The notes under the pieces are model-generated. The model had not been told where the DNA came from. It worked only from the letters and a program-made list of their open reading frames with translations, and made no database searches. Shown here in pieces: positions 13,320 to 27,190 of a stretch of 64,000 nucleotides of DNA (its first letter is position 1; every line of letters begins with the position of its first letter). Location of the stretch: NCBI GenBank assembly GCA_022711115.1, contig JAKLFP010000001.1, positions 389,183-453,182 of the forward strand. The letters run 5' to 3'. Origin of the DNA: Candidatus Omnitrophota bacterium. GTDB taxonomy: Bacteria; Omnitrophota; Omnitrophia; Omnitrophales; Aquincolibacteriaceae. A program made the translations under genes and the position numbers.

Positions 13320-14522
13320 TTATGTTTTTGTTGCCGTGACCGTTTCATCATGAAACGGTTTCACTTTATTTAAAACGGATCTGCAAAAAGCAAGAACCGG
13401 TTCTTTGATGGTTTCCGCATAGACGCTATTTCCAATCTCGTTAAAGTGCCCTTCGGGAAAATAGATATCTTTAATTTGGTAACCCTTTTTTTCCATCAGG
13501 GACCTTATCTTGTCCGTGGGATCAAAAAAATAAACCCCTTGTTGTTGCGGGAAAGTTTCAGCTAACAGGGATTTTTTAAAATGTTCGCAAACACCGGGAC
13601 GTTTTTCGTTTTTGGCCATCGCTTTTGAATTCGGCGTCCAGACAATCAACAGCGGTATATGATTTTCCCGGCAAAAAAGGGTCAGGCGACGCACATGCGC
13701 CAAACTGACGCGAGCGGCATCTTGAGGAGTCCTGGTGCTTGCAGGGTATAGGCTACCGGGTGTTTCAGCTGTCACATTTGGGAAACAAAACTTTTTGATC
13801 AAGACAAACAAGTGAGAATGCTGATTGAACCATGGATAAGGCGTACGCGTAAGAAGATATCTCTTAAAAGGAGTAAAGACTTTTTCATCTTTTAATATGA
13901 CTTGGCCGTCCCTGACGGCAAACGAGCAAGCTCGATAGTTAGGATTTTGATTAATATTATCAGCGATATCGTTTGAATTCATGAAATAGATGACGGCATC
14001 AACATGAAACATTTTTTGAAAACGTTTTAAAGCCTTGAAGACATGTCCCGTGGAATAAGTGCTGACCCCCCCATTTAAAAGCTGGATATCTCCTGTCTCC
14101 TTCAAGACTTGGGCTTTAAGGATGCCGTAAAAAGAATTATTGATTTCGACGCCCCAGCCGAATAAAAAGGAGTCCCCTAATGCCAGTATTTTTTTTACAT
14201 GAGCTGCGGGGTTTACGCTCTGATCCATCCTTAAGCCATATTCGTTAGTATCAACCTGGAATGAATAATATTCTTTCGTTAGAACGTCATCATACTTCTG
14301 GTTCGGGCCGTTCACTTGCCCCAAATCTTCATGCGGCATTAAATAGGGCCTCACAAGGGATTGGGGAGAAAACTTTCTAACGATCCATTCCCCCAAGAGA
14401 ATGGACAGGGTGAGAGATAACAGCAGTAAAAAAGAATTCGATGCAAAAACCAGCCCTCGAGATTTCTTTTCAAGAAAATTCATGTTAAACATGATGCGGT
14501 GATTCAAAAAATTTAGAAGCAA
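13320..14522 (-). CDS. membrane-anchored SGNH/GDSL hydrolase-family protein (paralog 2)
   Basis: N-terminal TM; LGDSFLFGWGV; C-terminal EGHFNEIGN. Confidence 0.6.
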   Translation of the reverse strand: MLLNFLNHRIMFNMNFLEKKSRGLVFASNSFLLLLSLTLSILLGEWIVRKFSPQSLVRPYLMPHEDLGQVNGPNQKYDDVLTKEYYSFQVDTNEYGLRMDQSVNPAAHVKKILALGDSFLFGWGVEINNSFYGILKAQVLKETGDIQLLNGGVSTYSTGHVFKALKRFQKMFHVDAVIYFMNSNDIADNINQNPNYRACSFAVRDGQVILKDEKVFTPFKRYLLTRTPYPWFNQHSHLFVLIKKFCFPNVTAETPGSLYPASTRTPQDAARVSLAHVRRLTLFCRENHIPLLIVWTPNSKAMAKNEKRPGVCEHFKKSLLAETFPQQQGVYFFDPTDKIRSLMEKKGYQIKDIYFPEGHFNEIGNSVYAETIKEPVLAFCRSVLNKVKPFHDETVTATKT

Positions 14523-14720: not shown

Positions 14721-16508
14721 TTGAGTAAAAAAACACTTTATTCCACTATGAAGATATCGGCAGAAAAAGAAAAAAAGCTGTCTCCTTTATTTCTCATTAT
14801 TCTTCTTGGAATAGGGCTCTATGCGATGATTCTCAATGCCCCGTTTTGTTTTGATGACAACGCAAAGATCGTCAGCAATTCGGCTTTAAAAGATACGGCG
14901 ACTTTCGAGCAAATATGGAAAATCCCGTATGCAAAAACAAACTTTCTTACCTTCGTCACTTTTGCCCTTAATTACCGTTGGGGGGGCATGAACCCCTTCG
15001 GATTCCATCTTGTGAATATCGTCTTGCATCTTCTCAGCGTCTTTTTAAGTTACCGGCTGGTGCTTATTTTCTTTTCCTGTCCCGCCTTCAGCTTATCCCC
15101 CTTGAGCGCATGGAAAAAATCTTTTGCTCTTATCGCGGCGCTCATCTTCCTATGTCACCCCCTTCAAACCCAGTCCGTCACGTATGTTTGGGCGCGTTCG
15201 GAAATATTATCTGCCATCTTTTGTTTTTTGTCCTTGCTGTTTTATATGAACGGGCGGCTAAAAAATAGGAAGCCGTTGCTTTTTCTTTCTTTCTTTTTGT
15301 TTTTGATCGGCATCTTCGCAAGAGGAAATATGATCATTTTCCCGCTTCTTGTTTTTTTAATCGAGATCACATTTTTCAGATCAACACCTCTGAAAATCAC
15401 TCGTCTATCTTCAAAAGGATGGCTGTTTCTATTGGGTTTAGGCCTATCGGCGATTCTTGTCGGAGTCTTTTTTTCGCAACTGGTGAACTTTTTTAACATC
15501 TCTTACCTTTTCAAGAACAGTTATATGCCCCGCACCCATTACCTCTTAACACAGTTTAGTGTTATCGTGCAGTACATCAAACTTTGTATTATCCCGCTGG
15601 GGCAAAATCTCGATTATGATTTCCCTTTTTCAAACTCTCTGTTCGAATTCCGGACTTTCGGTTCTCTTATGATATTGCTTTCTATTTTGGTTTCGGCCGT
15701 GCTCTGTTTTAAAAAGCATAGATTGATATCCTTTGGAATTTTCTGGTTTTTTATATGCCTCCTGCCGGTTTCCAGCATTATTCCCCTTTCAACCGTAATC
15801 TCTGAAAGTCGCGTCTACTTGCCGCTATTTGGCTTTTCTGTGCTTGTGACGGCTTTCATGTTTTCTTTCATCGCGGAAAAAAAGAAGGTGGTCCGGATTG
15901 CTTTTGTCGTCATCATGGGCTTAAGCGCCCTGACGATTGCCAGAAATTCTGTCTGGCGCTCATCGATCGCCATTATGGAAGACACTGTGAGAAAATCGCC
16001 TTTAAGCGGCCGGGCGCAGGCTAATTTGGGGGTGGCTTACAGCATGGCCGGACTTTATGACAAGGCCCTTGACAGTTATCGTACAGCCTTTGAGTTGGGT
16101 AGTAAAAGAGGCATGGATCGAAAATACTTGGCCCAAATTCTTATTAATTTAAGCTCTATTTACGGGTTGAAGGGCGATTATGAACGTGAAATTCACTATT
16201 GCCAGCAGGCGATTACTTATAATTCCAAAAATCCTCAAGCCTATAGCAATCTAGGACATGCGTATGCGTTAACCGGAGATTATGCCAAGGCGATAACATA
16301 CGGGCGTAAAGCCGTCGAAATTTCCCCGACTTTTGTTGAAGGATTGACAAACCTCGGTGTCGTTTACGGAAGAATGGGAAAGTACCGCGAAGCGGCCGAA
16401 CAGTTTGAGCGCGCGTTAAAACTTGACCGTGAGAATGAAAAGGCAAAACAGAATTTGCTTCTGGCGCAGCAATTGCTTAAAAATTCAAACGAACCTGCCC
16501 CTTTTTAA
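14721..16508 (+). CDS. TMTC/PMT-like GT-C membrane glycosyltransferase (DUF1736-type) with C-terminal TPR repeats
   Basis: Multi-TM N-terminal region with APFCFDDNAKIV and HLVNIVLHLL motifs shared with 39908-41716; C-terminal TPR repeats (AYSNLGHAYALTGDYAKAI...). Confidence 0.55.
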   Translation: MSKKTLYSTMKISAEKEKKLSPLFLIILLGIGLYAMILNAPFCFDDNAKIVSNSALKDTATFEQIWKIPYAKTNFLTFVTFALNYRWGGMNPFGFHLVNIVLHLLSVFLSYRLVLIFFSCPAFSLSPLSAWKKSFALIAALIFLCHPLQTQSVTYVWARSEILSAIFCFLSLLFYMNGRLKNRKPLLFLSFFLFLIGIFARGNMIIFPLLVFLIEITFFRSTPLKITRLSSKGWLFLLGLGLSAILVGVFFSQLVNFFNISYLFKNSYMPRTHYLLTQFSVIVQYIKLCIIPLGQNLDYDFPFSNSLFEFRTFGSLMILLSILVSAVLCFKKHRLISFGIFWFFICLLPVSSIIPLSTVISESRVYLPLFGFSVLVTAFMFSFIAEKKKVVRIAFVVIMGLSALTIARNSVWRSSIAIMEDTVRKSPLSGRAQANLGVAYSMAGLYDKALDSYRTAFELGSKRGMDRKYLAQILINLSSIYGLKGDYEREIHYCQQAITYNSKNPQAYSNLGHAYALTGDYAKAITYGRKAVEISPTFVEGLTNLGVVYGRMGKYREAAEQFERALKLDRENEKAKQNLLLAQQLLKNSNEPAPF

Positions 16509-16595: not shown

Positions 16596-16650
16596 GCGGA
16601 TTGTTCCTATCGGCAATCCGCGGGGCGGAGGGGAATCGTATTTTTTATTT
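16596..16650. terminator. possible bidirectional terminator hairpin (GCGGATTG...CAATCCGC) followed by a T-rich run
   Basis: Perfect 8-bp inverted repeat between convergent genes 14721-16508 (+) and 16649-17110 (-). Confidence 0.35.
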
Positions 16651-17110
16651 AAACGTTCTGCAGTAAGCCTTGGAGTTTTGCGGGGTGCCGTACATTTTTG
16701 AGAATGATAACAACGCCCGCCGTACCGTACGGGACCAGGAATACATTTCCGTATCTCAGTATCTTTCCCCAAAAATCCTGCTTTATCTGGACTGAAACGA
16801 TCTGTGCCCGTTCGATTTCCACGTTTTTTTTAAAAAATAATCCGGACGTCAATGTCACCTTTTTGGAACTGATTTCATATGTCGCGGTTACCGCCGCATA
16901 GAGCGCTATAACAAGCCAGCTTGGAAGAAATAAAACAAAAAACAGACCTAGGCTCATGAGTCCGATGTACGGGTCGAAAAAGAACGGCGCGATACCCAGA
17001 AGAACAAAAACAAAAAAGCATCCCGGCAGACGGGCCGCTATCGTCGGCTGTCCTTTCCATATTTTTTTATTCACATCTTGCTCCATCGATAAAACCCTTT
17101 CGCTGGACAT
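16649..17110 (-). CDS. membrane-flanked bacterial PH-domain protein (DUF304/bPH_2-like)
   Basis: Two N-terminal TM helices then a beta-rich segment ...YEISSKKVTLTSGLFFKKNVEIERAQIVSVQIKQDFWGKILRYGNV. Confidence 0.45.
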   Translation of the reverse strand: MSSERVLSMEQDVNKKIWKGQPTIAARLPGCFFVFVLLGIAPFFFDPYIGLMSLGLFFVLFLPSWLVIALYAAVTATYEISSKKVTLTSGLFFKKNVEIERAQIVSVQIKQDFWGKILRYGNVFLVPYGTAGVVIILKNVRHPAKLQGLLQNV

Positions 17111-17127
17111 GGAAGTTAAATGGTTTT

Positions 17128-17964
17128 TTAGGGCGTTCCCTTTTCCGCCTTGATTTCCTCCGCTGTGTTGCCGCCAAGCGATCTTAAAAAAGCAACAAGT
17201 TCTTGCTCTCCGAAACGTTCGGCGATATCGAGCGCCGTGTTTCCGTCGGCATTGATCGCGTTGATATCCGCGCCCTTGGAAACAAGGTATTGAATCCCCT
17301 CAAAGTCCTTGCTGTACGCATGCCAAATCAAAGGCGTATTATCTTTAACGCTTCTGGCGTTCACGTCTGCGCCGAAATCTGCCAAAACCTTCATGATGTC
17401 AAGCTCCTGATTAAAAATCGGCGTCATATTGAATTCCTCGTTCCTCGCGTGAACATCAGCACCTCGTCCAATCAAGAACTTCGCCGTTTCCGGATCTTTC
17501 ACCACATGCAGCACGCTTTCTCCGAATTCGTTTTTCGCTTTAATGCTGCCCCCTTGATTGAGGAGCCGGCGGACCTCATCCGTCTGATTGTTCCGTACCG
17601 CTTCGATCAGTTTAATATTCAAATCGGACGCGGACGTCTCCGCTGTTTGCGCTGGTTTTTTCAGGACCGCGGGGATGAAAAAGCTCATGAAGATCAGCCC
17701 CGAGGATAGAAGGACGCTTATCAGGATCAGCAGGATCCGCCAGCGTCCGAATTTGCCGCGGTAAATAAAGCGGCCGGCGATCAGTCCGAGGATCGGGATG
17801 ATCAAGGCGACCGGCCCTTCCGCGCCGCACGGGGCAACGGTCAGACACAGCAGGGCGTAGGTAAATACAAAAACGAGTATAACAACATGCAGAAGAAAAT
17901 AAAGAAATCCGACGATTTTAAAAACCATCGTTCTCAAACCCTCATTTTTATTTGATACAATCAC
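17128..17964 (-). CDS. ankyrin-repeat protein with N-terminal TM helices
   Basis: ANK repeats (NTPLIWHAYSKDFEGIQYLVSKGADINAINADGNTALDIAERFG). Confidence 0.6.
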   Translation of the reverse strand: MIVSNKNEGLRTMVFKIVGFLYFLLHVVILVFVFTYALLCLTVAPCGAEGPVALIIPILGLIAGRFIYRGKFGRWRILLILISVLLSSGLIFMSFFIPAVLKKPAQTAETSASDLNIKLIEAVRNNQTDEVRRLLNQGGSIKAKNEFGESVLHVVKDPETAKFLIGRGADVHARNEEFNMTPIFNQELDIMKVLADFGADVNARSVKDNTPLIWHAYSKDFEGIQYLVSKGADINAINADGNTALDIAERFGEQELVAFLRSLGGNTAEEIKAEKGTP

Positions 17965-18748
17965 ACGCTAAAAAACCTTCTTTTCCCTCCGTCACGCGGT
18001 AAAGGTGGCCGGCAGCGGCCTGGGTAAATAAATGGCCTTGGGGCAGGCATTGCCTGAAAACATCGAGTGCTTTTTTATAATACGCCGCCGCCTTAGCGGG
18101 TTGTCCCATGTCACGGTAAACCTGGCCCATGTTGTGATAGGATCCGCCCAGGTCTGCGTCGGGCTTAGGGTTTTTTTGCCGTACCGCAAGCGCCTGCTCG
18201 TGGAACTGTAATGCTTTTTGGAGTTTGCCCTGTTTACGGTAGAGTTCGCCAAGGTCATGCAGCACCCGGATGGTTTCGAGATGCGTCCGGCCAAGCAGTT
18301 TTTCCCGGACGGTGTAAACGCGGTTAAATTCGCTTTCTGCTTTTTCGTACTGGTGATTGAACAGATGCAAAATGGCCAAGTTGCTTAGTGTCTGTGCCGT
18401 ATCCAAATGATCCTTTCCTAAGGATTTTTCGCGAATGGTCAGAGCTTGGTTAAATAAAGGTTCTGCGACAATGTATTTCTCCTGATAAAAATAAGCCGTT
18501 GCGAGATTATGCAGGATCTGCGCCCGCAGAAGGTTTGCGGGCATTTTCTGGCGCTCCCCTGCCTTCAATGCCTCGAGAAATTCTATCGAAGCCAAGGGAT
18601 AATCATGCTTCTCATAAGAACGGACGCCTCTTTGGTTGAGGTCGGCCACAGAGCTCCATGGATTCTCCGAGGTCATCGATTGGGAGGACATCCCGACAAA
18701 GGTCAAGACCGCCATACCAAGAAGAAAAATCCGCCGCTTCATATTCAT
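17948..18748 (-). CDS. secreted TPR-repeat protein
   Basis: Signal peptide MNMKRRIFLLGMAVLTFVGMSS; repeated TPR units (ATAYFYQEKY..., LSNLAILHLFNHQYEKAE...). Confidence 0.6.
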   Translation of the reverse strand: MNMKRRIFLLGMAVLTFVGMSSQSMTSENPWSSVADLNQRGVRSYEKHDYPLASIEFLEALKAGERQKMPANLLRAQILHNLATAYFYQEKYIVAEPLFNQALTIREKSLGKDHLDTAQTLSNLAILHLFNHQYEKAESEFNRVYTVREKLLGRTHLETIRVLHDLGELYRKQGKLQKALQFHEQALAVRQKNPKPDADLGGSYHNMGQVYRDMGQPAKAAAYYKKALDVFRQCLPQGHLFTQAAAGHLYRVTEGKEGFLACDCIK

Positions 18749-18799
18749 TTATCTTCTCATTGAAAGGTTGTTTGTTTTATATGGATCAAAGTTGTTTCT

Positions 18800-19759
18800 T
18801 TATCTTTTGTTACTTTCAAAAGACATTTGCTCTTGGTATTGTTCACGACGTTTCTGCTTTTGTTGACTCACCGTCTGGCCGTAGGTCGGAGAAAAAAGAT
18901 CTTGATCAATCGCCTGACCCGCTGGCGCCTGTCCCGGTTTGTAGGGAACTCCCATTAGATGGATGCTTTCTTGCTGTGCGGGAGGATGGTTGGAAGATGA
19001 AGCTGGAACAGCAGAAACGCCCAAGAGGGTGATCGTCTTCTCGCCGGAAGACGCTTGTTCCGGAAGCCCTGTGCCGGGATGACCAAAGCCTGGAACAGCC
19101 ATGGAGGGCGGGAAAGGCATTTCTTCGTTTTTGGGTTGCAGCTTAAAAGTGACTTTTAATCCTTTTCTTGGCTGGGTTACTTTATGGATGGGGACCGCCT
19201 TGACCTGCTTCCCGTTAATGTCTGCCACCTTCCATGTGCCAACCTCCATTTCCATGCCGGCGGCTGTTACATATTTAAGTTCCGCAATATCATCCACGGC
19301 CGGCACCCGGTTCCCTTTCAACTCGATCAGAACATCCTCACCAAAAACCCCTGTAACTTCTCCTACTACGTCGTTTTTAGCCGGCACCGAAGTCTTTTGG
19401 GACGATGAAAACGGCTGGCTTTGAGAATTGACAAGCTGGGGCTGCCAGTTAAACGCGGGAACGATATTCACTTTCATTCCCTGACTGGGTCGCATATTCA
19501 AGCTGACAATCTCAAGTGTGTACCGGTTGCCGTTGATCGCGACGATCTTAAAGCGGCCGATGAGCATCTCCATAACTCCGGCCGTGTAGCTCAATTCGAT
19601 CTCGCTCTCAACGGGGAAACTTTCCGGTCCGTCAGTCTCAAGAATCACACTCTTGGAATTTTCTTCAAGTACGGTGCCGGTCATCGGACCGGCAGCAAAA
19701 AGCGGGAGTGCCTTCAAAACAAACAAGGCTGTTATAAAAACAAAAAAGATTTTTTTCAT
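18800..19759 (-). CDS. secreted hypothetical protein with internal tandem domain duplication
   Basis: Signal peptide; two similar ~90-aa modules (SYTAGVMEMLIGRFKIVAINGNRYTLEIV / VTAAGMEMEVGTWKVADINGKQVKAV); Q/P-rich C-terminus. Confidence 0.5.
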   Translation of the reverse strand: MKKIFFVFITALFVLKALPLFAAGPMTGTVLEENSKSVILETDGPESFPVESEIELSYTAGVMEMLIGRFKIVAINGNRYTLEIVSLNMRPSQGMKVNIVPAFNWQPQLVNSQSQPFSSSQKTSVPAKNDVVGEVTGVFGEDVLIELKGNRVPAVDDIAELKYVTAAGMEMEVGTWKVADINGKQVKAVPIHKVTQPRKGLKVTFKLQPKNEEMPFPPSMAVPGFGHPGTGLPEQASSGEKTITLLGVSAVPASSSNHPPAQQESIHLMGVPYKPGQAPAGQAIDQDLFSPTYGQTVSQQKQKRREQYQEQMSFESNKR

Positions 19760-19908
19760 AGATTTCCTTTAAAGTCGTGACAAAAAAATCCAAGAAATGA
19801 TTTTTTAGGCCGCGTCATGGTACGCGATTTCTTTTTATCATGATTTTTCCTGGCCTCGAAAAACTGGCGAACCCAAAAAGCCATTGTTTCAATGAGCGGG
19901 CAGCTCTC

Positions 19909-22900
19909 TTAATTATTAAAGGTAAAGCCGCCCCGGTTACGGTCACCCCAGATACCTTGGAAATTGTTATCGGGACTGCTGCCTCCGGAATGGCTCCCCG
20001 AAGAGGCGCTTCCGGACCTGAATTGCTCCAGAACAGTTTGTCCTCCGCCGCCGCTGCTTACACCCTTACTTCCTGTAGCGCATACGCCCACCAACTCGAT
20101 GGCGCCCGGGCAAATAGCTCCACCGCCCGTTGTCCCGCCGCCACCGCCTGTCGTGCCGCCTCCGAAATTAAACCCTCCGCCTCCTCCGGTATTGACCGGA
20201 GGCTTCCAACCCCCCTGGCTGACGATCTGCGCCTGATTCCGGATATTCTGCAGCATCATGTTGTTGAATTGTTGTTGCTGTTGTTGCTGCTGTTCCCATT
20301 GCTGCTGTTGCTGCTGCCGTTGCCATTCCATCTGCTGCATATCCTGTTGGAACTGAAAATCGTTTTGCTGCTGTTGCTGCTGCAGGGCTGCCGTTGCCGC
20401 TTGCATGGCCGCCAAAAGGTCCTGCTGACCTTGCGGCGCCCACGCGCAATTCATCGCCTGAGCAACCAGTGCATGCGCGGCATCGAATTGCTGGCTGTCG
20501 AGAAGCCCGTAAAAATTATTCTGGTACGAAACGCAGTCGATGCAGGCGGTATTGCTCGTGTTCCAAGTCAGGCCGAGCTGACAGACGCATGCCGGCCGGC
20601 CTTGTGGGTCATAACCGGGCTGCGTTCCAGGGACGGTGCATTGGATCATCGGCCGTCCAAAATACTGGACGATCACACTGCTCCCGGCCTGGGCCTGCGT
20701 GTTAGGACCCGGGCTTTGCGACCGGATCATATACGCGTCCTCCGCGCGCTGGGCGTCGCCGAGCGTCCTGGCGTCCGGATTAAAACCGGCTTGCTGCAAA
20801 ACCCCCATCGCTTGTTCAAATTGCATACCGATCACGTTTGGCACGGGGATCATCTGACCTTCTCCCGGCTGTCCGCCCTGGATCGGAGAATTCATCAGGT
20901 CTTCACCGAGCGTCACGCAAAAAGCCGCGTCCACGGCCGCGTCTTCAACGCGCTTCATATAATCCGCGGCCATCTGCCCGAGGTATTCGACGTTCTCAAC
21001 CGTTTTAAGCATCTGAGAGACCGTACTGCCTTCGGCTTCACCAAAAAGCTGCGTCCATTCGGCGTGCTGCGTCTTAATCTTGGAAAGGTTCGTTTTCATT
21101 TCTGTGATCTGCGTTTTCAAAGGGGCGATCACGGCCGCGGTTTCGTCAGGGCATTTGACCACGTTCTGGGCCGCGCCCTCGACCCGGCTTTGCATCTCTT
21201 CGATCTTGTCCAAGGTTTCCTTCCCTTCAGGGGTATCCTTGATGGGCTGCAGATTTTTCCTGAGATCCGCGGCCACGGTGTCGATCTTCGCGAGGATCGG
21301 TGCGATCGCGGCCACTTTTTCGCGCGCCGCGTTGACCTTCTCATCGGCTGTCGCTATCTTTTGTTCCAGCGCGTTCACTTTTGCGATCAGATTATCAAGC
21401 TCCTGAAAACCCTGGAGTTCCGTCCTTCCCGTTACCGCCTCATCGTAACCGCTCCGGACATTCTTGCTGTTGGTCTGCACGATCTGAAATTTTTCCCGCG
21501 CCTGAGAGAGCATCGGCCTGAGATCCGCTTCATCCGCCCTTACGGACTGCATGATCTTCTGCCGCTCTTCCTGGGATGTTGCGTATTTGATCGATTGCGC
21601 CTTCTCGCAGACGCGCACGCTGAGTTGTTCCATTTGCGATGCCGACGTGGCGAGAAATTTTGTTCCTTCTTCCGCGTCGTCCTGGATCCTGTTTATTTCC
21701 TGCGTGAGTTGTTTGACCCGCTGTGCCTTTATCTCCAGGTTCTTGGCTTTTGATTCGTAGGTCGCCACCTGGGATTTGATTTCCGCGAGCCCGGCCTGAA
21801 CCTCTTTGGTGATCACCGCGCAATCGTTGCAAAGCGCTCTCGCTTCGTTCGCGAGCGCTTCGGCCTGGGCCACAAGCTTCTCAAGCTCCCCAAGTTGATT
21901 CGATGTTCTCATATAATGCTGCTCGAATTCCGCGATCAGTTTATCAAAGGCTTCGTCATGGACCTTGTGCCGCTCGACCGCCAGGTCCTGGTCCGTCGGG
22001 CCCTTAGGCTGTAATTCTTTGTCGCGTTCCGAGGTGTCGGATTCCATGCCTACCGCGATCTGTAAAACCTCTCCCTGACTTGCCGGAATATCGCTTAACA
22101 CCTGCAGCCATGTGTCTCCGGGCTGGGCTTTACCGTTGACCAGTCGCCAAAGCTGCCGCCAAAGATCATGATGGGAAACACCGCCCAGCGTGGCTTGATC
22201 AAAACTTTTCGGATCGCTGTCCAGCGCCGAATCGGGGACATATTTGCGTTTGATCTCGGTCAGCTTTGCCGTCATGTCTTCTCTGATCTTCCCGGGCAGC
22301 TCCGCCCATTGGCCATAGGAAGTTTCGTCGCCCGAAGCTTTGCCCATCAAAAAATAGGGGCCGCTCAGGAGCCGCAGTTTGTCATCTTCTTTGGGATAAT
22401 TCCCGTACTGCTTTTCGGTCTCGTTCCTCGTGTCGCGGATCTTTTTGTAAGTTTTCAGGTATTGATCGATGATGCGCGTCTTTTCCTCAAAGACATCCCA
22501 GACATCCGCCTCGCCCATCATTTCCCGCTTGATCCCGCGGCTCATGTCCCAAAGCCAGACCAGCAGGTTCATGAAATCCCCGCCCGCTTCCTCCGTCAGC
22601 TTGTCCATCATCTGCTTTTTGATCCTGAGGTCTTCCGCGATCTTCTGGAGCTCCTCGAACATCTGGACGACCTGCCCGCTGATCTCCGCCTGTTCGGCCG
22701 CGCGCCGCTGTTCCAGGAGCTCAATCACGTGCTTCACGAATTCCAGCTTCACAACCTCCCATCGCGTGTACCACATGTCGGAAAAATGTTCCTTGAGTTT
22801 CGGCCCGACCAGTTCATGCTTCATCATTTCTTCCATCATCACAAGCCATGGGTCCTGCTCGGCCACTGTCTCACGCAGCATATCGTTGACCTTGAACCAG

Positions 22901-25458
22901 CCCGTGATCCCGTCAAGGGTGTACTCCATCTGTAGCCGCCGCTGCGCCTGAGGCAGTTTCAGCTGCGCGTACATTTCGCGGATCTGCCCCTGCTTTTTGT
23001 CAACAAACGCATCCAGATCGATCTCTTCGCCCTGATAGGTGACGGTGAGCAGTTTCCAGTTCGTCAGTTTGATCTTGTCGCCAACCGTTTCGACGTTAAG
23101 AAGCTTGAACTTCGCGTTTTCATAAAGATCGTCGATGAATTTGTCGACCTCCGTGCTCCAGTACATCTTCCATGTCTTCTCGCCCATGGATTCTCCGATG
23201 CTCTCGGCCACTCCAAGGAGCGCCACGGGAGGTATTAATGTTGTAAGTGTGTCCCAGCCGGCGGCCATGTATTTTCCCATATAAAGATTTGTCGCCGCGG
23301 AACCGAAAGGCACCCTCCGTTTGAAAAATTCACCCGCCAGGGCGCTCCATTCCCCCTGCCAGAAAAGGCCCACATACGCGGGGATTTCGTCGATCAAATT
23401 CATTGTGATTAAAATTTTGGAGGTTGCGCGGCCCGCGGCGCTGGAATTCATGGCGTCCCCGAAAAATTGGTTGGCGTCCTTAATTTTCTGGCGGACCAGG
23501 CTGTCCATAATGTACTTATTGACCCGCTCCGAGCGCCCGCGCCAAAGTTCTTCCTTGATATTGAGCCACTGGGTCCAGCCGTCGCTCAGCTTGCCTCCGG
23601 GCCGGTCCAGAAACTTCGCGACTTTGTCCGCCCAGCGGAACTCCTGAGCTCCCTGAATGTATCCGTCCCATTGAGTCTGCATCTCCCCGCGGAATTCCCC
23701 CATAAGCTTGTCATCAAGAACATCCAGCATCGTGTTGATCGTCTCAGGCATTGAAAGCAGTTTGGCCGCCGCGAGATTGATGGCTATCGGTTTTTTTGCT
23801 TTCAGCATGGAATCGATGAATTTATAGTCCTGCAGTCCCTGGACATCGAGCAGCTGAAATCCCCAGGTTTTCATGAACGATTTGTAGTCCCCGCGGAATT
23901 TCTCGAGCTGGCTCTTGAAGCCCGGGTCGATCTCCTTGATCCCCGCGATCTCGTCATTGAGCACGCGGGATTCGATCTCAATCATCTCATAAAGCTGGTT
24001 GAGCTCTTTCGCAATGCGTTTCGCTTCGGGATTATCCGGCGCTTTGGTCAGATCTTCCGGAGGCTGCGGCAGCCTGCCGATATCCGCGTTGAGCTTTTTC
24101 ATCTGCAGGTCAAATCCCTTGGCGACATTTTTCCACATGAGTTCCGAGCAGGAATTATAAAATTCCTTGATGATCGCCTCTTTGACTTCGATCTCGGGCT
24201 TGGATTGCCCGGTCTCATTCTCCGGCCCTAATTTCACATCAACCGGGAACGGTTTCCCGATCTCCTGGAAGTATTTCCGGATGATGTCGACCTGATTCAT
24301 CCCCTCAGCCCGTTTGTTCTCCTGCAGTAGTTTCGCGAAATCGGAGAGCGCTTTATTATCGGGTTCGGCGCCCGCCTCGCGGAGATATTTATTGCTCCGC
24401 TCAACATATTTTGTGGCCTTCATGAAACACTCGAGATCGGTGTAAACATTTTTCTTCACGATGTCGTGCTCGAAATGCCGGAGCATCTCGAGGCTCATAC
24501 CGGGCTCGACTTCCCATTTCAAGGCAATGAGATCGGCCATGCCGACCTTCGCGAACTTGGCGTCAAGCACCACCTGCGTCATCGCGTCATCCCCCAGGAC
24601 GATCTCGCCGATGGTTCCGTTATCGAGGTCCAGGATCTTGATCTTGGGTTTTTTATCCCGCTCTGTGGTGTACTTTCTGAAATTATCCTCGCCGTATTTC
24701 GAGCCGTGTTTAGCAACGTAAACCTCGTCCTTGCCCATCCCTTGCGGCGTGCACACAGTATCGAACTGTTCGGCTGTCAAATTCGTTCTTTGTTTGATGA
24801 AATCATCGAATTCCTGCTGCATGGCTACCGAAAGCTCAAGGTCGCCGCAGATGAGGGTAAAATCGATATCTCCGGCGAATTGCATCGCTTCAAGGGATTC
24901 GGTCGGCCAGCTCCCGATCTCTCCGAGGAACACTTTGAATTTATAACCGTTGATATTGTTCTTTCCTTTGAATTTCCGCGCCACATGTTCAATGCCTTCG
25001 AGCACGATCTGTCTTCGCCAGGAAAGAAGGTCCTTTTCGACTTTGGACCCTCCTTCCGCGTAGAGTTCGCCGAGAAAATATTTCAGCCCCTTCTGACCGG
25101 TCCTTCCCTGGTAGTCCCCGATCTCTTTTTTGACCTGCATCAGAAGGTGGCGGCGTTCGAGGCCATCCGGCATTTCCATGCGGGATAGTTCGTGATAGAA
25201 AGTTTCCGGCGTCATCGCGCCCGCGGCCACCTTTCGAAAATTCTCCGCGATCTTGATCTTGACATCGGAGTATTCCTGGAAAAGCTCGATCGGCGGGACC
25301 TGGAAAGAGTCTTTATCTTCCTGGTCCGGGTTATCGGGAGACGCCGCGAAAAGATCGCCGGAAGGAATCACTGCGATCAGAAATGCCAGGAAAGGGATAA
25401 GGGCTATTGCGAAGAATATTTTTTGCTGGTGACTGCTTTTCTGCAGGAGGCAACTCAT
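19909..25458 (-). CDS. giant (1849 aa) secreted/membrane-anchored protein: N-terminal TM/signal, long coiled-coil regions, PASTA-like domain, Cys-rich module, polyQ and Gly-rich C-terminal tail
   Basis: Single ORF with markedly higher GC than flanking DNA. PASTA-like VPNVIGMQFEQAMGVLQQAGFNP...IRSQSPGPNTQAQAGSSVIVQY. QQQQQ.. and GGGGG.. tracts at the C-terminus. N-terminal region contains IGSWPTESLEAMQFAGDIDF, a possible nucleotidyltransferase-like GS...DxD motif. Confidence 0.6.
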   Translation of the reverse strand: MSCLLQKSSHQQKIFFAIALIPFLAFLIAVIPSGDLFAASPDNPDQEDKDSFQVPPIELFQEYSDVKIKIAENFRKVAAGAMTPETFYHELSRMEMPDGLERRHLLMQVKKEIGDYQGRTGQKGLKYFLGELYAEGGSKVEKDLLSWRRQIVLEGIEHVARKFKGKNNINGYKFKVFLGEIGSWPTESLEAMQFAGDIDFTLICGDLELSVAMQQEFDDFIKQRTNLTAEQFDTVCTPQGMGKDEVYVAKHGSKYGEDNFRKYTTERDKKPKIKILDLDNGTIGEIVLGDDAMTQVVLDAKFAKVGMADLIALKWEVEPGMSLEMLRHFEHDIVKKNVYTDLECFMKATKYVERSNKYLREAGAEPDNKALSDFAKLLQENKRAEGMNQVDIIRKYFQEIGKPFPVDVKLGPENETGQSKPEIEVKEAIIKEFYNSCSELMWKNVAKGFDLQMKKLNADIGRLPQPPEDLTKAPDNPEAKRIAKELNQLYEMIEIESRVLNDEIAGIKEIDPGFKSQLEKFRGDYKSFMKTWGFQLLDVQGLQDYKFIDSMLKAKKPIAINLAAAKLLSMPETINTMLDVLDDKLMGEFRGEMQTQWDGYIQGAQEFRWADKVAKFLDRPGGKLSDGWTQWLNIKEELWRGRSERVNKYIMDSLVRQKIKDANQFFGDAMNSSAAGRATSKILITMNLIDEIPAYVGLFWQGEWSALAGEFFKRRVPFGSAATNLYMGKYMAAGWDTLTTLIPPVALLGVAESIGESMGEKTWKMYWSTEVDKFIDDLYENAKFKLLNVETVGDKIKLTNWKLLTVTYQGEEIDLDAFVDKKQGQIREMYAQLKLPQAQRRLQMEYTLDGITGWFKVNDMLRETVAEQDPWLVMMEEMMKHELVGPKLKEHFSDMWYTRWEVVKLEFVKHVIELLEQRRAAEQAEISGQVVQMFEELQKIAEDLRIKKQMMDKLTEEAGGDFMNLLVWLWDMSRGIKREMMGEADVWDVFEEKTRIIDQYLKTYKKIRDTRNETEKQYGNYPKEDDKLRLLSGPYFLMGKASGDETSYGQWAELPGKIREDMTAKLTEIKRKYVPDSALDSDPKSFDQATLGGVSHHDLWRQLWRLVNGKAQPGDTWLQVLSDIPASQGEVLQIAVGMESDTSERDKELQPKGPTDQDLAVERHKVHDEAFDKLIAEFEQHYMRTSNQLGELEKLVAQAEALANEARALCNDCAVITKEVQAGLAEIKSQVATYESKAKNLEIKAQRVKQLTQEINRIQDDAEEGTKFLATSASQMEQLSVRVCEKAQSIKYATSQEERQKIMQSVRADEADLRPMLSQAREKFQIVQTNSKNVRSGYDEAVTGRTELQGFQELDNLIAKVNALEQKIATADEKVNAAREKVAAIAPILAKIDTVAADLRKNLQPIKDTPEGKETLDKIEEMQSRVEGAAQNVVKCPDETAAVIAPLKTQITEMKTNLSKIKTQHAEWTQLFGEAEGSTVSQMLKTVENVEYLGQMAADYMKRVEDAAVDAAFCVTLGEDLMNSPIQGGQPGEGQMIPVPNVIGMQFEQAMGVLQQAGFNPDARTLGDAQRAEDAYMIRSQSPGPNTQAQAGSSVIVQYFGRPMIQCTVPGTQPGYDPQGRPACVCQLGLTWNTSNTACIDCVSYQNNFYGLLDSQQFDAAHALVAQAMNCAWAPQGQQDLLAAMQAATAALQQQQQQNDFQFQQDMQQMEWQRQQQQQQWEQQQQQQQQFNNMMLQNIRNQAQIVSQGGWKPPVNTGGGGGFNFGGGTTGGGGGTTGGGAICPGAIELVGVCATGSKGVSSGGGGQTVLEQFRSGSASSGSHSGGSSPDNNFQGIWGDRNRGGFTFNN

Positions 25459-25643
25459 CGTTTTTGGCCGGAACAGCCCTCTTGTTATCTTTTCGATGAT
25501 GTTGAAGCCAGTTTCCGCAATGAGGTGAAAACTGTATCTCTATTATAACAGGAAAGTTGTTTTCCTCATTATCTTTAGAATGAGGCCATTATGATGAACT
25601 TACTGGCGCGTTATTTGCCATGTTCTTCGAATTTATTTAAGAG

Positions 25644-25717
25644 CGCGCCCGGCAGGAGTCGAACCTGCAACCTTCTGATCCGTAGTCAGATGCTCTATCC
25701 AATTGAGCTACGGGCGC
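25644..25717 (-). tRNA. tRNA-Arg (anticodon ACG)
   Basis: Cloverleaf read manually: acceptor GCGCCCG/CGGGCGC, anticodon stem TCTGA/TCAGA, loop CTACGGA, T-arm GGTTCGACTCC; CCA not encoded. Confidence 0.85.
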
Positions 25718-26101
25718 ATGAGACTTAATTATAATGATTACAACAACTTACAGAAAACAAGCTTTTCAAATCCTGATCGCTAAAACAGCTCGTGTGGCAC
25801 ATTTGTGGCAGTCTGTTCGCAGCCCCGTGGGGCACCTGCGAGACAAGACTGTGAGTAGTGGCGTATTATAAGCGTTTTTTTGGGAAATGCAAAAAAATCT
25901 AGACCCGAATTTTCCACACGGGTAAGTTCAAACGTTGGCGGTAGGTCTCGCCTTTAAGTAGGTTTATCTTCCGTTCCGGAAGATCTCCCCGGGCTGTAAG
26001 ATGCTGCCGATGCTTCCCGAGCCAAAGCGATGTCCCGAGATGGAGCGTGTGCTTGCCGTAGGGCCTGTTGATGCCGCCTTGCCATAGATGTGACGTTCAG
26101 T

Positions 26102-27190
26102 TTATAAAACCCCCGCTTCACTTAAAGCCTTATGAAGCTGATGGGCAACAAAGTTATTGCCCTCTAAAGTCATGTGCCCTCTTCGGCCATAAAAAAAGGC
26201 GTCCAAAACTTCCGGGTTTGTTTTTATAATTCCAAAAAAAGGGACTGCCAGATCGACCACTTGAATTGTCTTATCATCAATGCCGCTCAGCACGGCGTCG
26301 ACAATGCTTAGCTCGTCTAAATTCGTGTCATGAGTGTATTGCACAAGAACGATGATGTGTTTCAGGCGATCTGTCGGAATCATGGCCCTGAGGTACCGGA
26401 ACATCAAATAACCGGTGGAAACAGCCTGATCCTGGGAATAGGCCTCGTCATCCCCCCACTTTTCCTGGAGCCAGTGGTCGGGAAAAGCGGTCTTCATGGC
26501 ATAGTGGAGAAAGGCGCTGTAGCCGAATATTTTTCGGGCCAACCAAAGACCGTCTTTCTCAGCGGGAAGTATGGGAACCGGAATATTTTTTGTAACAAGC
26601 CGGTCGCCTGAAAGTTCTATGTAGGGCTTTGCGACACCGTGTCTTTTAGACTGTCTGCAGCGAAGCACATCGTCGGCAATAAAGCTCAAGATCAGAATAT
26701 CCGGGTTGTAGACCCGGACCAATTGGCCGGCCCTGAGAAATATCTGATCAAGCCCGTATGCAAAAACACCGCCGTTCACGACCCGCTTTCCGGATATTTT
26801 TTCCAAAAGCGCCGGCCATGTCTCGCCATCCGATACGTCGGCCCCAAAGGTGAACGAATCGCCCACGGCCAAGATCGATACGGGACCGGAGGCTTCTTCG
26901 GCCTTACCGGTGCCGTTGGAACGAATACCATTTTTAAGGATGGTAACCGTCTTTCCCCACGAATTTTTATCCCCCGAGTAACCTTCTTGGGGGATCCACC
27001 CTAGATGGGAATCATATTGGCAGGGGTAGGAGGACTTCAGGATGTTTATATTTTGCTCCGCAAAATTCACAAAGGCATATTCCCCCTTGATGACGCGAGT
27101 GGCCAGCTCGAGTACTATGAAAACTACCAGCAGGGCAAGCGCGGAGATGAGCGGATTTATAAACGATATCTTCTTTTCAGAATTCATCAA
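26102..27190 (-). CDS. membrane-anchored SGNH/GDSL hydrolase-family protein (paralog 3)
   Basis: N-terminal TM; AVGDSFTFGADV; C-terminal RGHMTLEGN. Confidence 0.6.
   Translation of the reverse strand: MMNSEKKISFINPLISALALLVVFIVLELATRVIKGEYAFVNFAEQNINILKSSYPCQYDSHLGWIPQEGYSGDKNSWGKTVTILKNGIRSNGTGKAEEASGPVSILAVGDSFTFGADVSDGETWPALLEKISGKRVVNGGVFAYGLDQIFLRAGQLVRVYNPDILILSFIADDVLRCRQSKRHGVAKPYIELSGDRLVTKNIPVPILPAEKDGLWLARKIFGYSAFLHYAMKTAFPDHWLQEKWGDDEAYSQDQAVSTGYLMFRYLRAMIPTDRLKHIIVLVQYTHDTNLDELSIVDAVLSGIDDKTIQVVDLAVPFFGIIKTNPEVLDAFFYGRRGHMTLEGNNFVAHQLHKALSEAGVL

What the first reader, a model, noticed from the sequence alone, without database searches (positions are those of the whole stretch)
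16600..25720. Higher-GC segment ending at tRNA-Arg that carries a 1849-aa giant surface protein and eukaryote-like repeat proteins
From ~16.6 to 25.6 kb the nucleotide composition and codon choice shift sharply relative to the AT-rich glycan genes (GC-ending codons, ~55% versus ~38% GC). The segment ends exactly at tRNA-Arg(ACG), a classic integration site. It encodes a bPH-domain membrane protein, an ankyrin-repeat membrane protein, a secreted TPR protein, a secreted duplicated-domain protein and the giant protein. This looks like a horizontally acquired island encoding a host- or cell-interaction module.
Basis: partly seen in the sequence, partly recalled or inferred. Interest (0 to 1): 0.65.

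Follow-up and report, generated by a model that had tools for sequence, protein, structure and literature searches.

The report
Exported giant-protein operon, not an island
Next to a tRNA gene lies a five-gene operon for a rare, uncharacterised 1,849-residue exported protein and its exported helper proteins. It is an old, conserved cassette, not a freshly inserted foreign island.

Summary
The window is from a Candidatus Omnitrophota MAG, near oriC. The composition claim is overstated. The segment is 51.8% GC against 40.6% on the left and 45.7% on the right. Only the 1849-aa gene is a clear outlier (54.2% GC, GC3 0.68, atypical codon usage along its whole length). The genes beyond the tRNA match the four small genes in GC.

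I found no integrase and no repeat of the tRNA. A related Omnitrophota species carries the same five genes in the same order (40-80% amino-acid identity), so this is not a recent tRNA-targeted insertion.

The big gene belongs to a rare family: about 210 clusters among 1.84 billion proteins, and 42 loci among 185,579 species. It is scattered across phyla. A conserved ~1,050-aa N-terminal module has no Pfam, NCBIfam or PDB relative, and the C-terminal binding domains vary (PASTA here).

The first ~490 residues model confidently (pLDDT 91). They carry an invariant GS...DxD...D pattern on a Pol-beta nucleotidyltransferase-like topology, but every similarity score is non-significant. Exported partner genes (a duplicated beta-domain with or without PDZ, TPR/Sel1, ankyrin) recur downstream in distant phyla. 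GC3 excess is a trait of the whole family (33 of 37 loci).

The parts
25865..25893 (-). Promoter-like site (TTTGCA-17-TATAAT) about 150 bp upstream of tRNA-Arg. It is a possible shared promoter for the tRNA and the five genes downstream.
   Evidence: 10 of 12 consensus matches. No terminator-like site was listed on the minus strand between the tRNA and the big gene. This is a consensus match only; co-transcription is inferred.
25643..25717 (-). tRNA-Arg(ACG), 184 bp upstream of the big gene on the same strand.
   Evidence: ARAGORN; Rfam RF00005 at 71.3 bits. No copy of 12 nt or more of it exists elsewhere in the window.
19909..25458 (-). Gene for the 1849-aa exported protein (annotated 'PASTA domain-containing protein'). 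It belongs to a rare, uncharacterised family.
   Evidence: ORF. The identical protein is found on 11 contigs from several samples. There are 14 clusters among 5.8 billion proteins, 210 representatives among 1.84 billion and 42 loci among 185,579 species genomes. GC3 is 0.678 and Karlin B 0.41.
25342..25458 (-). N-terminal signal peptide or signal anchor (aa 1-39, ...DLFA/AS).
   Evidence: It is the only strongly hydrophobic segment of the protein (aa 11-41). Homologues have matching N-terminal hydrophobic stretches that end in A-x-A-like sites (alignment). Cleavage is inferred.
23824..25293 (-). N-domain (aa 56-545). It is a confidently folded alpha/beta plus helical domain with Pol-beta nucleotidyltransferase-like motifs: G182-S-W, D197-x-D199 and D233.
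   Evidence: AF2 model: pLDDT 91.3, pTM 0.90. Residues invariant over 39-68 family members are E141, R148, G182, D197, D199, D233, T237, P319, R327, H328, K347, K350 and R354. The highest-probability Foldseek local matches are Pol-beta NTases, but none is significant. The best hhalign alignment to an MNT family puts all three motifs in register, but probability is 0.3%.
22129..23823 (-). Conserved helical middle module (aa 546-1110). Invariant residues include L578-D579, D582-D583, E710-x-F-x-R-R-x-P717 and P743-P744, and there are two moderately hydrophobic helices (aa 681-700 and 732-759).
   Evidence: Alignments; hydropathy. The AF2 model is mostly helical with low confidence here. No Pfam or PDB match was found.
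21019..21981 (-). Coiled-coil stalk (about aa 1160-1480).
   Evidence: Weak SMC, Rad50 and LmuB coiled-coil matches; syntaxin, keratin and designed coiled-coil hits in PDB.
20665..20847 (-). PASTA domain (aa 1538-1598).
   Evidence: Pfam PF03793: E 4.2e-7, 30.3 bits against a cut-off of 23.2.
19912..20391 (-). Q-rich then G/S-rich low-complexity C-terminal tail (about aa 1690-1849).
   Evidence: Translation; CTG/TTG-type short repeats at 20269-20383.
18800..19759 (-). Exported 319-aa partner with a duplicated beta-rich domain (aa ~25-100 and ~128-206) and a P/Q/S-rich tail. It is orthologous to the duplicated-domain plus PDZ proteins found downstream of family members elsewhere.
   Evidence: BLASTP against the L007 PDZ protein gives E 2e-18 across both copies, and against L006 E 5e-14. 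A custom HMM finds the domain within 3 kb of the big gene in 8 loci, directly downstream in most, plus a partial hit in L018. Signal peptide.
17948..18748 (-). Exported 266-aa TPR_12 protein. It is conserved in the sister species. Its role may correspond to the Sel1/TPR modules fused to the duplicated domain or to ankyrin repeats in other loci.
   Evidence: Pfam TPR_12 at E 3.8e-58; 55% identity to the L012 orthologue; Sel1-repeat fusions in L016 and L025 (my reading of those sequences).
17128..17964 (-). Membrane-anchored ankyrin-repeat partner. The ORF is 278 aa; gene callers start it at M13, giving 266 aa. It has three TM helices, and the ankyrin domain is predicted to face outward.
   Evidence: Pfam Ank_2 at E 1.2e-26. 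It is 36-41% identical over its full length to the ankyrin genes downstream of family members in L006 and L007 (E 3e-44 and 6e-50), and 69% identical in L012. TM helices and a positively charged TM2-TM3 loop. Homologues with a single signal peptide or anchor. Topology is inferred.
16649..17110 (-). bPH_2 membrane protein (153 aa, two TM helices). It is the last gene of the block and is conserved only in the sister species.
   Evidence: Pfam PF03703 at E 3.3e-12; 50% identity to the L012 orthologue, which also has bPH_2; TM helices.

Best explanation
The segment is a co-oriented, operon-like five-gene cassette: giant, duplicated-domain protein, TPR, ankyrin, bPH. It lies immediately downstream of tRNA-Arg, and it is not an integrase-borne island.

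Its core is a Sec-exported 1849-aa protein of a rare, uncharacterised family. The domain order is: signal peptide; a ~490-aa head with a Pol-beta-nucleotidyltransferase-like active-site pattern; a ~560-aa conserved helical module; a ~320-aa coiled-coil stalk; a PASTA domain; and a low-complexity tail.

I infer that it works outside the cytoplasm, in the periplasm or on the cell surface. The enzyme-like head would be held on a long stalk whose variable C-terminal domain binds a wall or glycan ligand (peptidoglycan through PASTA here; PKD, discoidin, LamG or vWA in relatives). The exported protein-interaction partners encoded downstream would help it assemble or hold it in place.

The cassette has moved between phyla in the past but is old in this Omnitrophota lineage. 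The high GC3 of the big gene is largely a property of the gene family, not a scar of recent import.

Shown: gene content, cassette conservation, rarity and distribution of the family, absence of island hallmarks, and a composition anomaly confined to one gene.
Inferred: export topology, nucleotidyltransferase fold, function in the envelope, and the partner roles.
For: Island hallmarks absent:
- No tRNA-derived repeat.
- No recombinase domains.

Block conserved:
- The Omnitrophota relative L012 has the same order. Amino-acid identities are giant 80/74%, dup 40%, TPR 55%, Ank 69% and bPH 50%.
- Nucleotide homology is limited to window 16962-25118.

Cassette partners recur in other phyla:
- Giant, then duplicated-domain/PDZ, then Ank in Syntrophotaleaceae L006 and in L007.
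- Giant, then Ank, then PDZ in Omnitrophota L021.
- The duplicated domain in 8 loci and the specific Ank family in 5.

Family traits:
- The family is rare and has no curated model.
- GC3 of the family gene exceeds the flank ORF mean in 33 of 37 loci (mean +0.07, Wilcoxon p 6e-7).
- In L012 the gene's GC3 (0.77) is ordinary for that GC-rich locus.

Export:
- There is a single N-terminal hydrophobic segment.
- The C-terminal domains of relatives are typically extracytoplasmic types.
- The partners carry signal peptides or outward-facing topology.

NTase-like head:
- The model has pLDDT 91 with an alpha-beta(GS)-alpha-beta(DxD)-alpha-beta(D) order.
- These residues are invariant in 68 sequences.
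- The highest-probability structural matches are Pol-beta NTases in both libraries searched.
- The motifs align in register with an MNT profile.
Against: - The big gene's GC3 excess here (+0.21, z 3.2) is near the top of the family range, and its codon usage is clearly atypical for the window. A foreign component is therefore not excluded.
- At four-fold sites the giant and Ank genes are less diverged from L012 than dup, TPR and bPH (0.49 and 0.55 against 0.27-0.36). They are also GC-richer there (0.75 against 0.53-0.57). This could mean later allele replacement rather than selection.
- The upstream side in L012 is cut by the contig end, so conservation of the tRNA junction is untested.
- A second Omnitrophota locus (L021) also has a tRNA just upstream.
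- All NTase similarity scores are non-significant: Foldseek E 0.09 or worse, hhalign probability 0.3%.
- An NTP-using enzyme outside the cytoplasm has no obvious substrate supply.
- The flank GC3 test used mechanical ORFs, which may include spurious ones in GC-rich loci.
Confidence: 0.6

Rival explanations
1. This is a classic tRNA-targeted genomic island. A mobile element carrying the five genes integrated recently into the 3' end of tRNA-Arg(ACG). The GC shift marks its foreign origin.
For: The block lies on the 3' side of a tRNA gene. It is the highest-GC 9.1-kb stretch of the window. The family is patchily distributed across phyla. Homology with L012 ends at the distal gene. L021 also has a tRNA just upstream.
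Against: No repeat of the tRNA at the far end or anywhere in 64 kb. No integrase or any mobility gene. The small genes have ordinary composition, and the genes beyond the tRNA have the same GC. The block is shared with a diverged relative at 40-80% amino-acid identity. 19 of 21 scanned family loci have no tRNA nearby.
Confidence: 0.06
2. This is an older lateral transfer or allele replacement from a GC-rich Omnitrophota relative, independent of the tRNA. The cassette, or just the giant and ankyrin genes, came from an L012-like lineage (~60% GC) and is only partly ameliorated in this ~45% GC genome.
For: The L012 locus is GC-rich throughout (GC3 0.67-0.81). The window's block genes all sit above the window mean GC3, with giant and Ank highest. 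Giant and Ank keep more silent-site identity to L012 than dup, TPR and bPH. The flanks differ between the two genomes. Omnitrophota family members are not monophyletic.
Against: Giant and Ank are not adjacent, so a single replaced fragment does not explain the mosaic. Silent sites are far from identical (49-55%), so any transfer is old enough that amelioration should have equalised the genes. The GC3 excess of this gene family recurs in unrelated genomes, which points to an intrinsic cause. The evolutionary distance between the two genomes is unknown.
Confidence: 0.25
3. The protein is a secreted AB-type toxin or effector used against other cells. The N-terminal nucleotidyltransferase-like enzyme would be delivered into a target cell. 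The helical module with hydrophobic helices would act as the translocation device, and the variable C-terminal domains as receptor binders (PASTA targeting peptidoglycan). The downstream repeat proteins would be immunity or chaperone factors.
For: The domain order is enzyme-like head, helical module with conserved hydrophobic helices, then variable binding domains. An NTP-dependent fold makes most sense inside a target cell. Partner genes lie immediately downstream and are sometimes duplicated. Omnitrophota are proposed predators or parasites (PMC10066038).
Against: No recognisable toxin, translocation or secretion-system domain. The partners are exported, which is not where immunity to a cytosol-acting enzyme would be needed. 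The family occurs, often in two copies, in Thiobacillus and Gallionellaceae, which to my knowledge are free-living chemolithotrophs. In those members the ankyrin and duplicated-domain partners were not detected.
Confidence: 0.2

Closest known systems
tRNA-linked genomic islands (integrase-mediated pathogenicity or symbiosis islands, integrative elements)
   Same: A block of accessory surface-related genes lies on the 3' side of a tRNA gene, has raised GC, and belongs to a family with patchy phyletic distribution.
   Different: There is no integrase, no direct repeat of the tRNA end and no other mobility gene. The anomaly is confined to one gene. The block is shared with a diverged relative.
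Pol-beta superfamily nucleotidyltransferases (minimal MNT-type enzymes, CCA/A-adding enzymes)
   Same: The hG[GS]-x13-DxD motif, a third Asp on the next strand, and the alpha-beta-alpha-beta-alpha-beta order followed by a helical body. These are the highest-probability, though weak, structural matches.
   Different: No significant sequence, profile or Foldseek similarity. The domain sits behind a signal peptide at the head of an 1,849-aa exported protein. Extra conserved R/H/K residues have no assigned role.
Large AB-type exotoxins with the order enzyme, translocation region, receptor-binding region (large clostridial toxins, diphtheria toxin; from my own knowledge)
   Same: An N-terminal enzyme-like domain, then a helical region with hydrophobic helices, then a variable C-terminal binding region. 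The protein is Sec-exported.
   Different: No homology to any toxin domain, no autoprocessing domain, exported partner proteins and no evidence of toxicity. The resemblance is one of architecture only.
Giant ORFs of Omnitrophota (over 20 kb; PMC10066038, bioRxiv 10.1101/2023.11.21.568195)
   Same: The same phylum. Predicted extracellular proteins with few annotated domains. Relatives of this family carry the discoidin and laminin-G domains also noted in those giant ORFs.
   Different: This gene is only 5.5 kb. It has a well-conserved N-terminal module shared across many phyla and a conserved partner cassette. Those papers do not mention PASTA, ankyrin or nucleotidyltransferase.
PASTA-domain proteins (class B penicillin-binding proteins, PknB-type kinases; from my own knowledge)
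   Same: One PASTA domain above Pfam's cut-off, presumably outside the cytoplasm.
   Different: There is no transpeptidase or kinase domain. PASTA is one of several interchangeable C-terminal modules in the family.

Membership tests
tRNA-integrated genomic island | tRNA gene at one boundary | tested here: met
   tRNA-Arg(ACG) at 25643-25717(-), 184 bp from the start of the big gene.
tRNA-integrated genomic island | Direct repeat of the tRNA 3' part (attL/attR) at the distal boundary | tested here: not met
   No match of 12 nt or more to the tRNA exists anywhere in the window. The 10-11 nt matches are scattered and at chance level. No direct-repeat family pairs ~25.6 kb with ~16.5 kb.
tRNA-integrated genomic island | Integrase or recombinase gene inside the element | tested here: not met
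   The five genes have other assignments. Seven further ORFs on both strands have no Pfam hit.
tRNA-integrated genomic island | Atypical composition across the whole element | tested here: not met
   Only the big gene is an outlier (GC3 0.678, B 0.41). dup319 and TPR266 are typical and Ank is mildly raised. The genes beyond the tRNA have the same GC as the small genes.
tRNA-integrated genomic island | Absence from close relatives at the same site | tested here: inconclusive
   The block is present, in the same order, in relative L012. That contig starts inside the big gene, so the tRNA side cannot be seen. A search through the flanking 362-aa protein found no syntenic orthologue.
Pol-beta-like nucleotidyltransferase superfamily (N-domain) | hG[GS] x9-13 Dh[DE]h motif | tested here: met
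   The sequence is EIG182S183W, then 13 residues, then D197-I-D199-F. G182, D197 and D199 are invariant in 68 sequences.
Pol-beta-like nucleotidyltransferase superfamily (N-domain) | Third carboxylate on the following beta-strand, and an alpha-beta-alpha-beta-alpha-beta core | tested here: met
   In the AF2 model (pLDDT 91) the order is helix, strand 121-126, GS loop, short helix, strand 143-149 (with D142/D144 at its start), helix, strand 179-183 preceded by invariant D178. That is model numbering; add 55 for protein numbering. This rests on a predicted structure.
Pol-beta-like nucleotidyltransferase superfamily (N-domain) | Statistically significant sequence, profile or structure similarity to known members | tested here: not met
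Pol-beta-like nucleotidyltransferase superfamily (N-domain) | Nucleotidyl-transfer activity | not testable with these tools
   This needs biochemistry on residues 56-545.
PASTA domain (PF03793) | Match above Pfam's gathering score | tested here: met
   30.3 bits against a cut-off of 23.2, E 4.2e-7, aa 1538-1598.
Polymorphic or AB toxin system | Recognisable toxin domain, and a dedicated secretion or translocation component nearby | tested here: not met
   No toxin, T1SS, T5SS, T6SS or T7SS domain was found in the protein or within 10 kb. Only TadE/TadG-like pseudopilin genes lie at 27.4-28.9 kb.
Polymorphic or AB toxin system | Cognate immunity gene immediately downstream | tested here: inconclusive
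   Conserved downstream genes exist, but they are exported repeat proteins. Neutralisation cannot be tested here.
Omnitrophota giant ORFs (over 20 kb) | ORF longer than 20 kb | tested here: not met
   The gene is 5,550 bp. The definition is taken from PMC10066038.
Ankyrin, TPR and bPH_2 partner proteins | Pfam matches above the cut-offs | tested here: met
   Ank_2 at 93.6 bits, TPR_12 at 194 bits, bPH_2 at 46.9 bits.

The most novel reading that the evidence does not exclude
The big protein would found a new class: exported, stalked enzymes headed by a Pol-beta-type nucleotidyltransferase-like domain. The enzyme would work outside the cytoplasm, either on the producer's own envelope polymers or on a neighbouring or prey cell that it contacts through interchangeable C-terminal binding domains (PASTA, PKD, discoidin, LamG, vWA). 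A dedicated set of exported partners (ankyrin, TPR/Sel1, and PDZ with a duplicated beta-domain) would assist it. On this reading it is a previously undescribed envelope or contact-dependent system, spread by lateral transfer among sediment and groundwater bacteria.
Probability: 0.2. Interest if true: 0.75.

Novelty: new variant of a known kind. Interest (0 to 1): 0.42.

Why it matters
As an 'island', the finding is ordinary and mostly wrong. The tRNA adjacency and the GC rise do not add up to an integration event, which shows that a single long gene with its own codon bias can mimic one.

What is worth keeping is the cassette itself. A ~1,050-residue module is conserved from Omnitrophota to Desulfobacterota, Betaproteobacteria, Acidobacteria, Planctomycetota and Kiritimatiellae. 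It has no curated family and no structural relative. Its head folds confidently and carries an intact nucleotidyltransferase-like catalytic pattern behind a signal peptide, and it has recurrent exported ankyrin, TPR and PDZ partners.

If the head is an active enzyme outside the cytoplasm, that would be an unusual piece of envelope or cell-cell biochemistry in poorly known, possibly predatory, ultrasmall bacteria. It is directly testable with a 490-residue construct.

Tried and rejected
- Search for a tRNA-derived att repeat (k-mers of 10-16 nt on both strands, and a general direct-repeat scan): nothing beyond chance.
- Search for integrase or transposase in the genes and long antisense ORFs: nothing.
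- Pfam, NCBIfam, PADLOC and PDB sequence searches of the conserved module, with single sequences and profiles, down to E = 10: only coiled-coil noise.
- Structure of the whole 1,065-aa module: pLDDT 62, and Foldseek against PDB was uninformative. I therefore re-predicted the head alone with a deeper alignment.
- hhalign of the head against one MNT sequence and then an MNT family: not significant.
- Sister-genome synteny through the right-flank 362-aa SGNH protein. Its family is large, the closest non-self hits are only 49-54% identical and on short contigs, and the one examined (L054) is not syntenic.
- The idea that the two SGNH genes flanking the block are a split duplication was rejected. 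They share only 29% identity, over the catalytic block.
- My custom HMMs for the partner domains were too narrow to find the divergent Ank and PDZ genes in L021, which Pfam did find. The partner counts are therefore minimum values.
- The literature on Omnitrophota giant ORFs does not cover this family.
Full report
**Source and setting.** The exact 1849-aa protein is encoded on 11 public contigs. One is NCBI GCA_035390585.1 contig DAOOUA010000002.1 (361,822 bp), where the protein is named 'PASTA domain-containing protein [Candidatus Omnitrophota bacterium]'. From the first residues of their translations (my reading), the window also appears to carry dnaA, dnaN, gyrB, gyrA and serS at 54-63 kb, so it lies next to the replication origin. 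Most of the rest is glycan and surface-biogenesis genes: GT2 glycosyltransferases, a methyltransferase, SGNH-type esterases, a radical-SAM/SPASM gene, TadE/TadG-like pseudopilins and an autotransporter.

**Checking the observation.** The composition claim is only partly right.

| Region | GC | Source |
|---|---|---|
| Segment 16600-25720 | 51.8% | |
| Left 16.6 kb | 40.6% | |
| Right flank | 45.7% | |
| Whole window | 44.8% | |
| Big gene | 54.2% (GC3 0.678) | |
| 16600-19850 (four small genes) | 48.3% | |
| serS-gyrA-gyrB | 48.2% | |
| Two genes just beyond the tRNA | 49.0% and 47.9% | |

- The signal comes from the big gene. The small-gene stretch cannot be told apart from serS-gyrA-gyrB or from the genes beyond the tRNA.
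- Karlin's codon-bias distance to the other window genes is 0.41 for the big gene, and 0.44-0.51 in each 300-codon chunk. Typical genes score 0.21-0.30, and the similarly long autotransporter scores 0.15. The TPR and duplicated-domain genes are unremarkable.
- The compositional step therefore sits at the start codon of the big gene, not at the tRNA.
- The genome is patchy in any case: dnaA and dnaN are 35% GC, and the autotransporter is 52.7%.

**Testing the island model.**
- No stretch of 12 nt or more of the tRNA recurs anywhere in the 64 kb. No direct repeat brackets the segment.
- None of the five genes, and none of seven further ORFs on either strand, has a recombinase or other mobility domain.
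- A scan of one genome per species (185,579 species) with a profile of the conserved module returned 42 loci.
- The closest is L012, from another Omnitrophota MAG. It has the same five genes in the same order. Identities are giant 80% (N-module) and 74% (C-part), duplicated-domain protein 40%, TPR 55%, ankyrin 69% and bPH 50%.
- Nucleotide homology between L012 and the window covers only 16962-25118. After bPH, L012 continues with an M48 peptidase, whereas the window continues with glycan genes.
- The block is thus an old unit in this lineage with a real left boundary. The L012 contig starts inside the big gene, so the tRNA junction could not be compared. Trying to reach it through the flanking 362-aa protein failed.
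- Of 21 family loci scanned for tRNAs, only one other (L021, Omnitrophota) has a tRNA (Phe) just upstream. It too lacks a repeat or an integrase.

**Why the big gene is GC-rich.**
- Across 37 other loci from many phyla, the family gene's GC3 exceeds the mean of its flanking ORFs in 33 cases (mean +0.07, Wilcoxon p 6e-7). The gene's GC tracks its host, from 40% to 71%. The excess is therefore largely a family trait. One caveat: the flank ORFs were called mechanically.
- The window's excess (+0.21) is near the top of the range.
- In L012, all genes are GC-rich (GC3 0.67-0.81) and the big gene is ordinary there.
- At four-fold sites under conserved residues, identity between the window and L012 is uneven:

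| Gene | Observed identity | Chance | GC at these sites in the window |
|---|---|---|---|
| Giant | 0.49 | 0.33 | about 0.75 |
| Ankyrin | 0.55 | 0.36 | about 0.75 |
| TPR | 0.36 | 0.27 | 0.57 |
| Duplicated-domain | 0.29 | 0.26 | 0.54 |
| bPH | 0.27 | 0.25 | 0.53 |

- This mosaic fits either constraint on silent sites in the two core genes, or a later allele exchange with a GC-rich relative. It does not fit a one-step island insertion, and the two genes are not adjacent. I cannot decide between the two readings without the whole genomes.

**What the big protein is.**
- The family is rare: 14 clusters among 5.8 billion proteins by word-indexed search, and 210 representatives among 1.84 billion by exhaustive profile search. 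Almost all members are 1,200-3,700 aa.
- Members share a ~1,050-aa N-terminal module (window residues ~46-1110) with dozens of invariant residues.
- The C-terminal parts differ between members: PASTA here, and PKD, discoidin, laminin-G, vWA or Ig-like domains elsewhere.
- The module has no match in Pfam, NCBIfam, PADLOC or PDB sequences.
- The only strongly hydrophobic segment is N-terminal (aa 11-41). Homologues have the same, ending in A-x-A-like sites, and the C-terminal domain types are typically extracytoplasmic. I therefore infer that the whole protein is exported.
- Residues ~1160-1480 are coiled coil. PASTA is at 1538-1598. A Cys-rich stretch and a Q-rich then G/S-rich tail follow.

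**The head domain.**
- A model of residues 56-545, built from a 39-sequence alignment, has pLDDT 91.3 and pTM 0.90.
- Its core runs: helix; strand; G182-S-W loop; short helix; strand starting at D197-x-D199; helix; strand preceded by D233. From my own knowledge, this is the order and motif spacing (hG[GS]-x13-DhDh, with the third carboxylate on the next strand) that define Pol-beta-type nucleotidyltransferases.
- G182, D197, D199 and D233 are invariant across 68 sequences, together with E141, R148, T237, P319, R327, H328, K347, K350 and R354.
- Foldseek found nothing significant in PDB or BFVD. The highest-probability local matches were, however, Pol-beta enzymes in both libraries: A-adding enzymes at E 0.09, MNT antitoxin at probability 0.28, a Catovirus 'Polymerase beta nucleotidyltransferase domain' protein at probability 0.63, and a phage RP12 nucleotidyltransferase at probability 0.33.
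- hhalign against an MNT family is not significant (probability 0.3%), but its best alignment puts all three motifs in register.

**The partners.**
- In Syntrophotaleaceae (L006) and in L007, the family gene is followed on the same strand by a protein with the same duplicated beta-rich domain as the window's 319-aa protein, there fused to PDZ. An ankyrin protein 36-41% identical over its full length to the window's comes next.
- In Omnitrophota L021 the order is giant, then ankyrin, then PDZ.
- A domain HMM finds the duplicated domain next to the big gene in 8 loci, plus a partial hit in L018. The specific ankyrin family is found in 5.
- In Acidobacteria (L016) and a deltaproteobacterium (L025), the duplicated domain appears fused to Sel1-type repeats. 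In L025, Sel1 and ankyrin repeats appear to share one signal-peptide protein (my reading of the sequences).
- The window's separate TPR protein therefore looks like one variant of a recurring set of exported interaction modules.
- The ankyrin protein has three TM helices with a positively charged TM2-TM3 loop, and homologues have a single signal peptide or anchor. The ankyrin domain is thus predicted to face outward.
- The more distant subfamily (27-29% identity; Thiobacillus, Gallionellaceae and others) lacks detectable partners.

**Distribution.**
- The 42 loci come from Omnitrophota (7), Desulfuromonadales, Desulfatiglandales, Desulfarculia, Syntrophaceae, Thiobacillus, Gallionellaceae, Hydrogenophilales, Anaeromyxobacter, Acidobacteria, Kiritimatiellae, Scalindua, Chromatiaceae and others. 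Some genomes hold two copies.
- In a neighbour-joining tree the Omnitrophota members fall into at least three places. The window groups with L012 and L013. L019, L021 and L024 group with a Desulfatiglandales member. L015 groups with Desulfuromonadales (no bootstrap support was computed).
- This argues for lateral transfer over long timescales, not for a recent event here.

**Mechanism, with likelihoods.** My preferred reading (about 0.4 for the functional part) is an extracytoplasmic, stalked enzyme-adhesin. The enzyme-like head would sit on a long helical and coiled-coil stalk whose C-terminal module binds a wall or glycan ligand. The exported repeat-protein partners would help it assemble or hold it in place. 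The five genes are co-oriented with short gaps, and a promoter-like site lies upstream of the tRNA with no terminator between the tRNA and the big gene, so co-transcription is plausible but not shown. The main functional rival (about 0.2) is an AB-type toxin or effector whose head acts inside a target cell. That would solve the NTP-supply problem, but exported 'immunity' proteins and the absence of any toxin or secretion signature count against it.

**Verdict.** The island interpretation is not supported, although the idea of a 'module' is. The thing itself is a member of an undescribed, rare, cross-phylum cassette. It is a new variant among large exported multidomain proteins and moderately interesting. 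The testable core is the 490-residue head.

Noticed in passing
window 60822-63429: The ORFs that read as dnaN and dnaA from their N-terminal residues are very AT-rich (35% GC, GC3 0.29-0.30). They lie directly beside the gyrB/gyrA-like ORFs at 49% GC (GC3 0.54-0.57). That is a striking compositional jump among core genes at the origin.
   Followed up: no
window 33172-37812: A second GC peak (52.7%) falls on a 1546-aa autotransporter with PATR repeats. Here the excess is at codon position 2 (0.55), which points to amino-acid composition, and codon usage is typical (B 0.15).
   Followed up: partly
window 14721-16508 (+): The convergent neighbour is a multi-pass membrane protein (about 11 hydrophobic segments) with C-terminal TPRs. 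Homologues lie within 6 kb of family genes in L019, L025, L026 and L042, which come from different phyla. It may be functionally linked to the cassette, for example by glycosylating the exported protein, or it may simply be a common gene type.
   Followed up: partly
L021 9465-9539: In Omnitrophota HK-STAS-OMNI-3, a tRNA-Phe sits about 270 bp upstream of the family gene's ORF on the same strand, mirroring the tRNA-Arg arrangement in the window. There is no integrase or tRNA repeat there either. By my rough estimate, two of 21 loci is more than chance would give. This is unexplained.
   Followed up: partly
window 16649-25458 compared with L012 3-8196: Silent-site identity to the sister species is uneven within the block. 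Giant and ankyrin are clearly above chance and GC-rich at four-fold sites. The duplicated-domain, TPR and bPH genes are near saturation and AT-richer, although the genes are interleaved.
   Followed up: partly
window 19840-21753 (+): A 637-aa ORF runs antisense inside the big gene, along with several others of 100-255 aa. None of the longest ones tested has a Pfam hit. They are most likely by-products of the gene's GC-rich third positions.
   Followed up: yes
window 13320-14522 and 26102-27190: SGNH/GDSL-type esterase genes lie on both sides of the block, so glycan-modification genes continue on either side of it. The two are only distantly related (29% identity over the catalytic block) and are not a split duplication.
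   Followed up: yes
L010 19406-21964: In one metagenomic locus, an 852-aa protein with an anthrax-toxin-type adenylate cyclase domain (PF03497) lies 6.5 kb downstream of the family gene, which is split there into several ORFs.
   Followed up: no
L033/L045, L034/L047, L030/L046, L022/L049: Four MAGs each carry two family loci on different contigs: a Gallionellaceae MAG, a Thiobacillus MAG, a Proteobacteria MAG and a deltaproteobacterial MAG. In the NJ tree the two copies are diverged from each other (where the L033 copy appears as L009).
   Followed up: no
window 18800-18940 (aa 1-46 of the 319-aa protein): The N-terminus weakly matches NCBIfam 'ExtJ', a small protein of selenite/tellurite reduction operons (E 2.3e-5, below the cut-off). 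The match probably reflects the signal peptide plus the start of the beta-domain.
   Followed up: no
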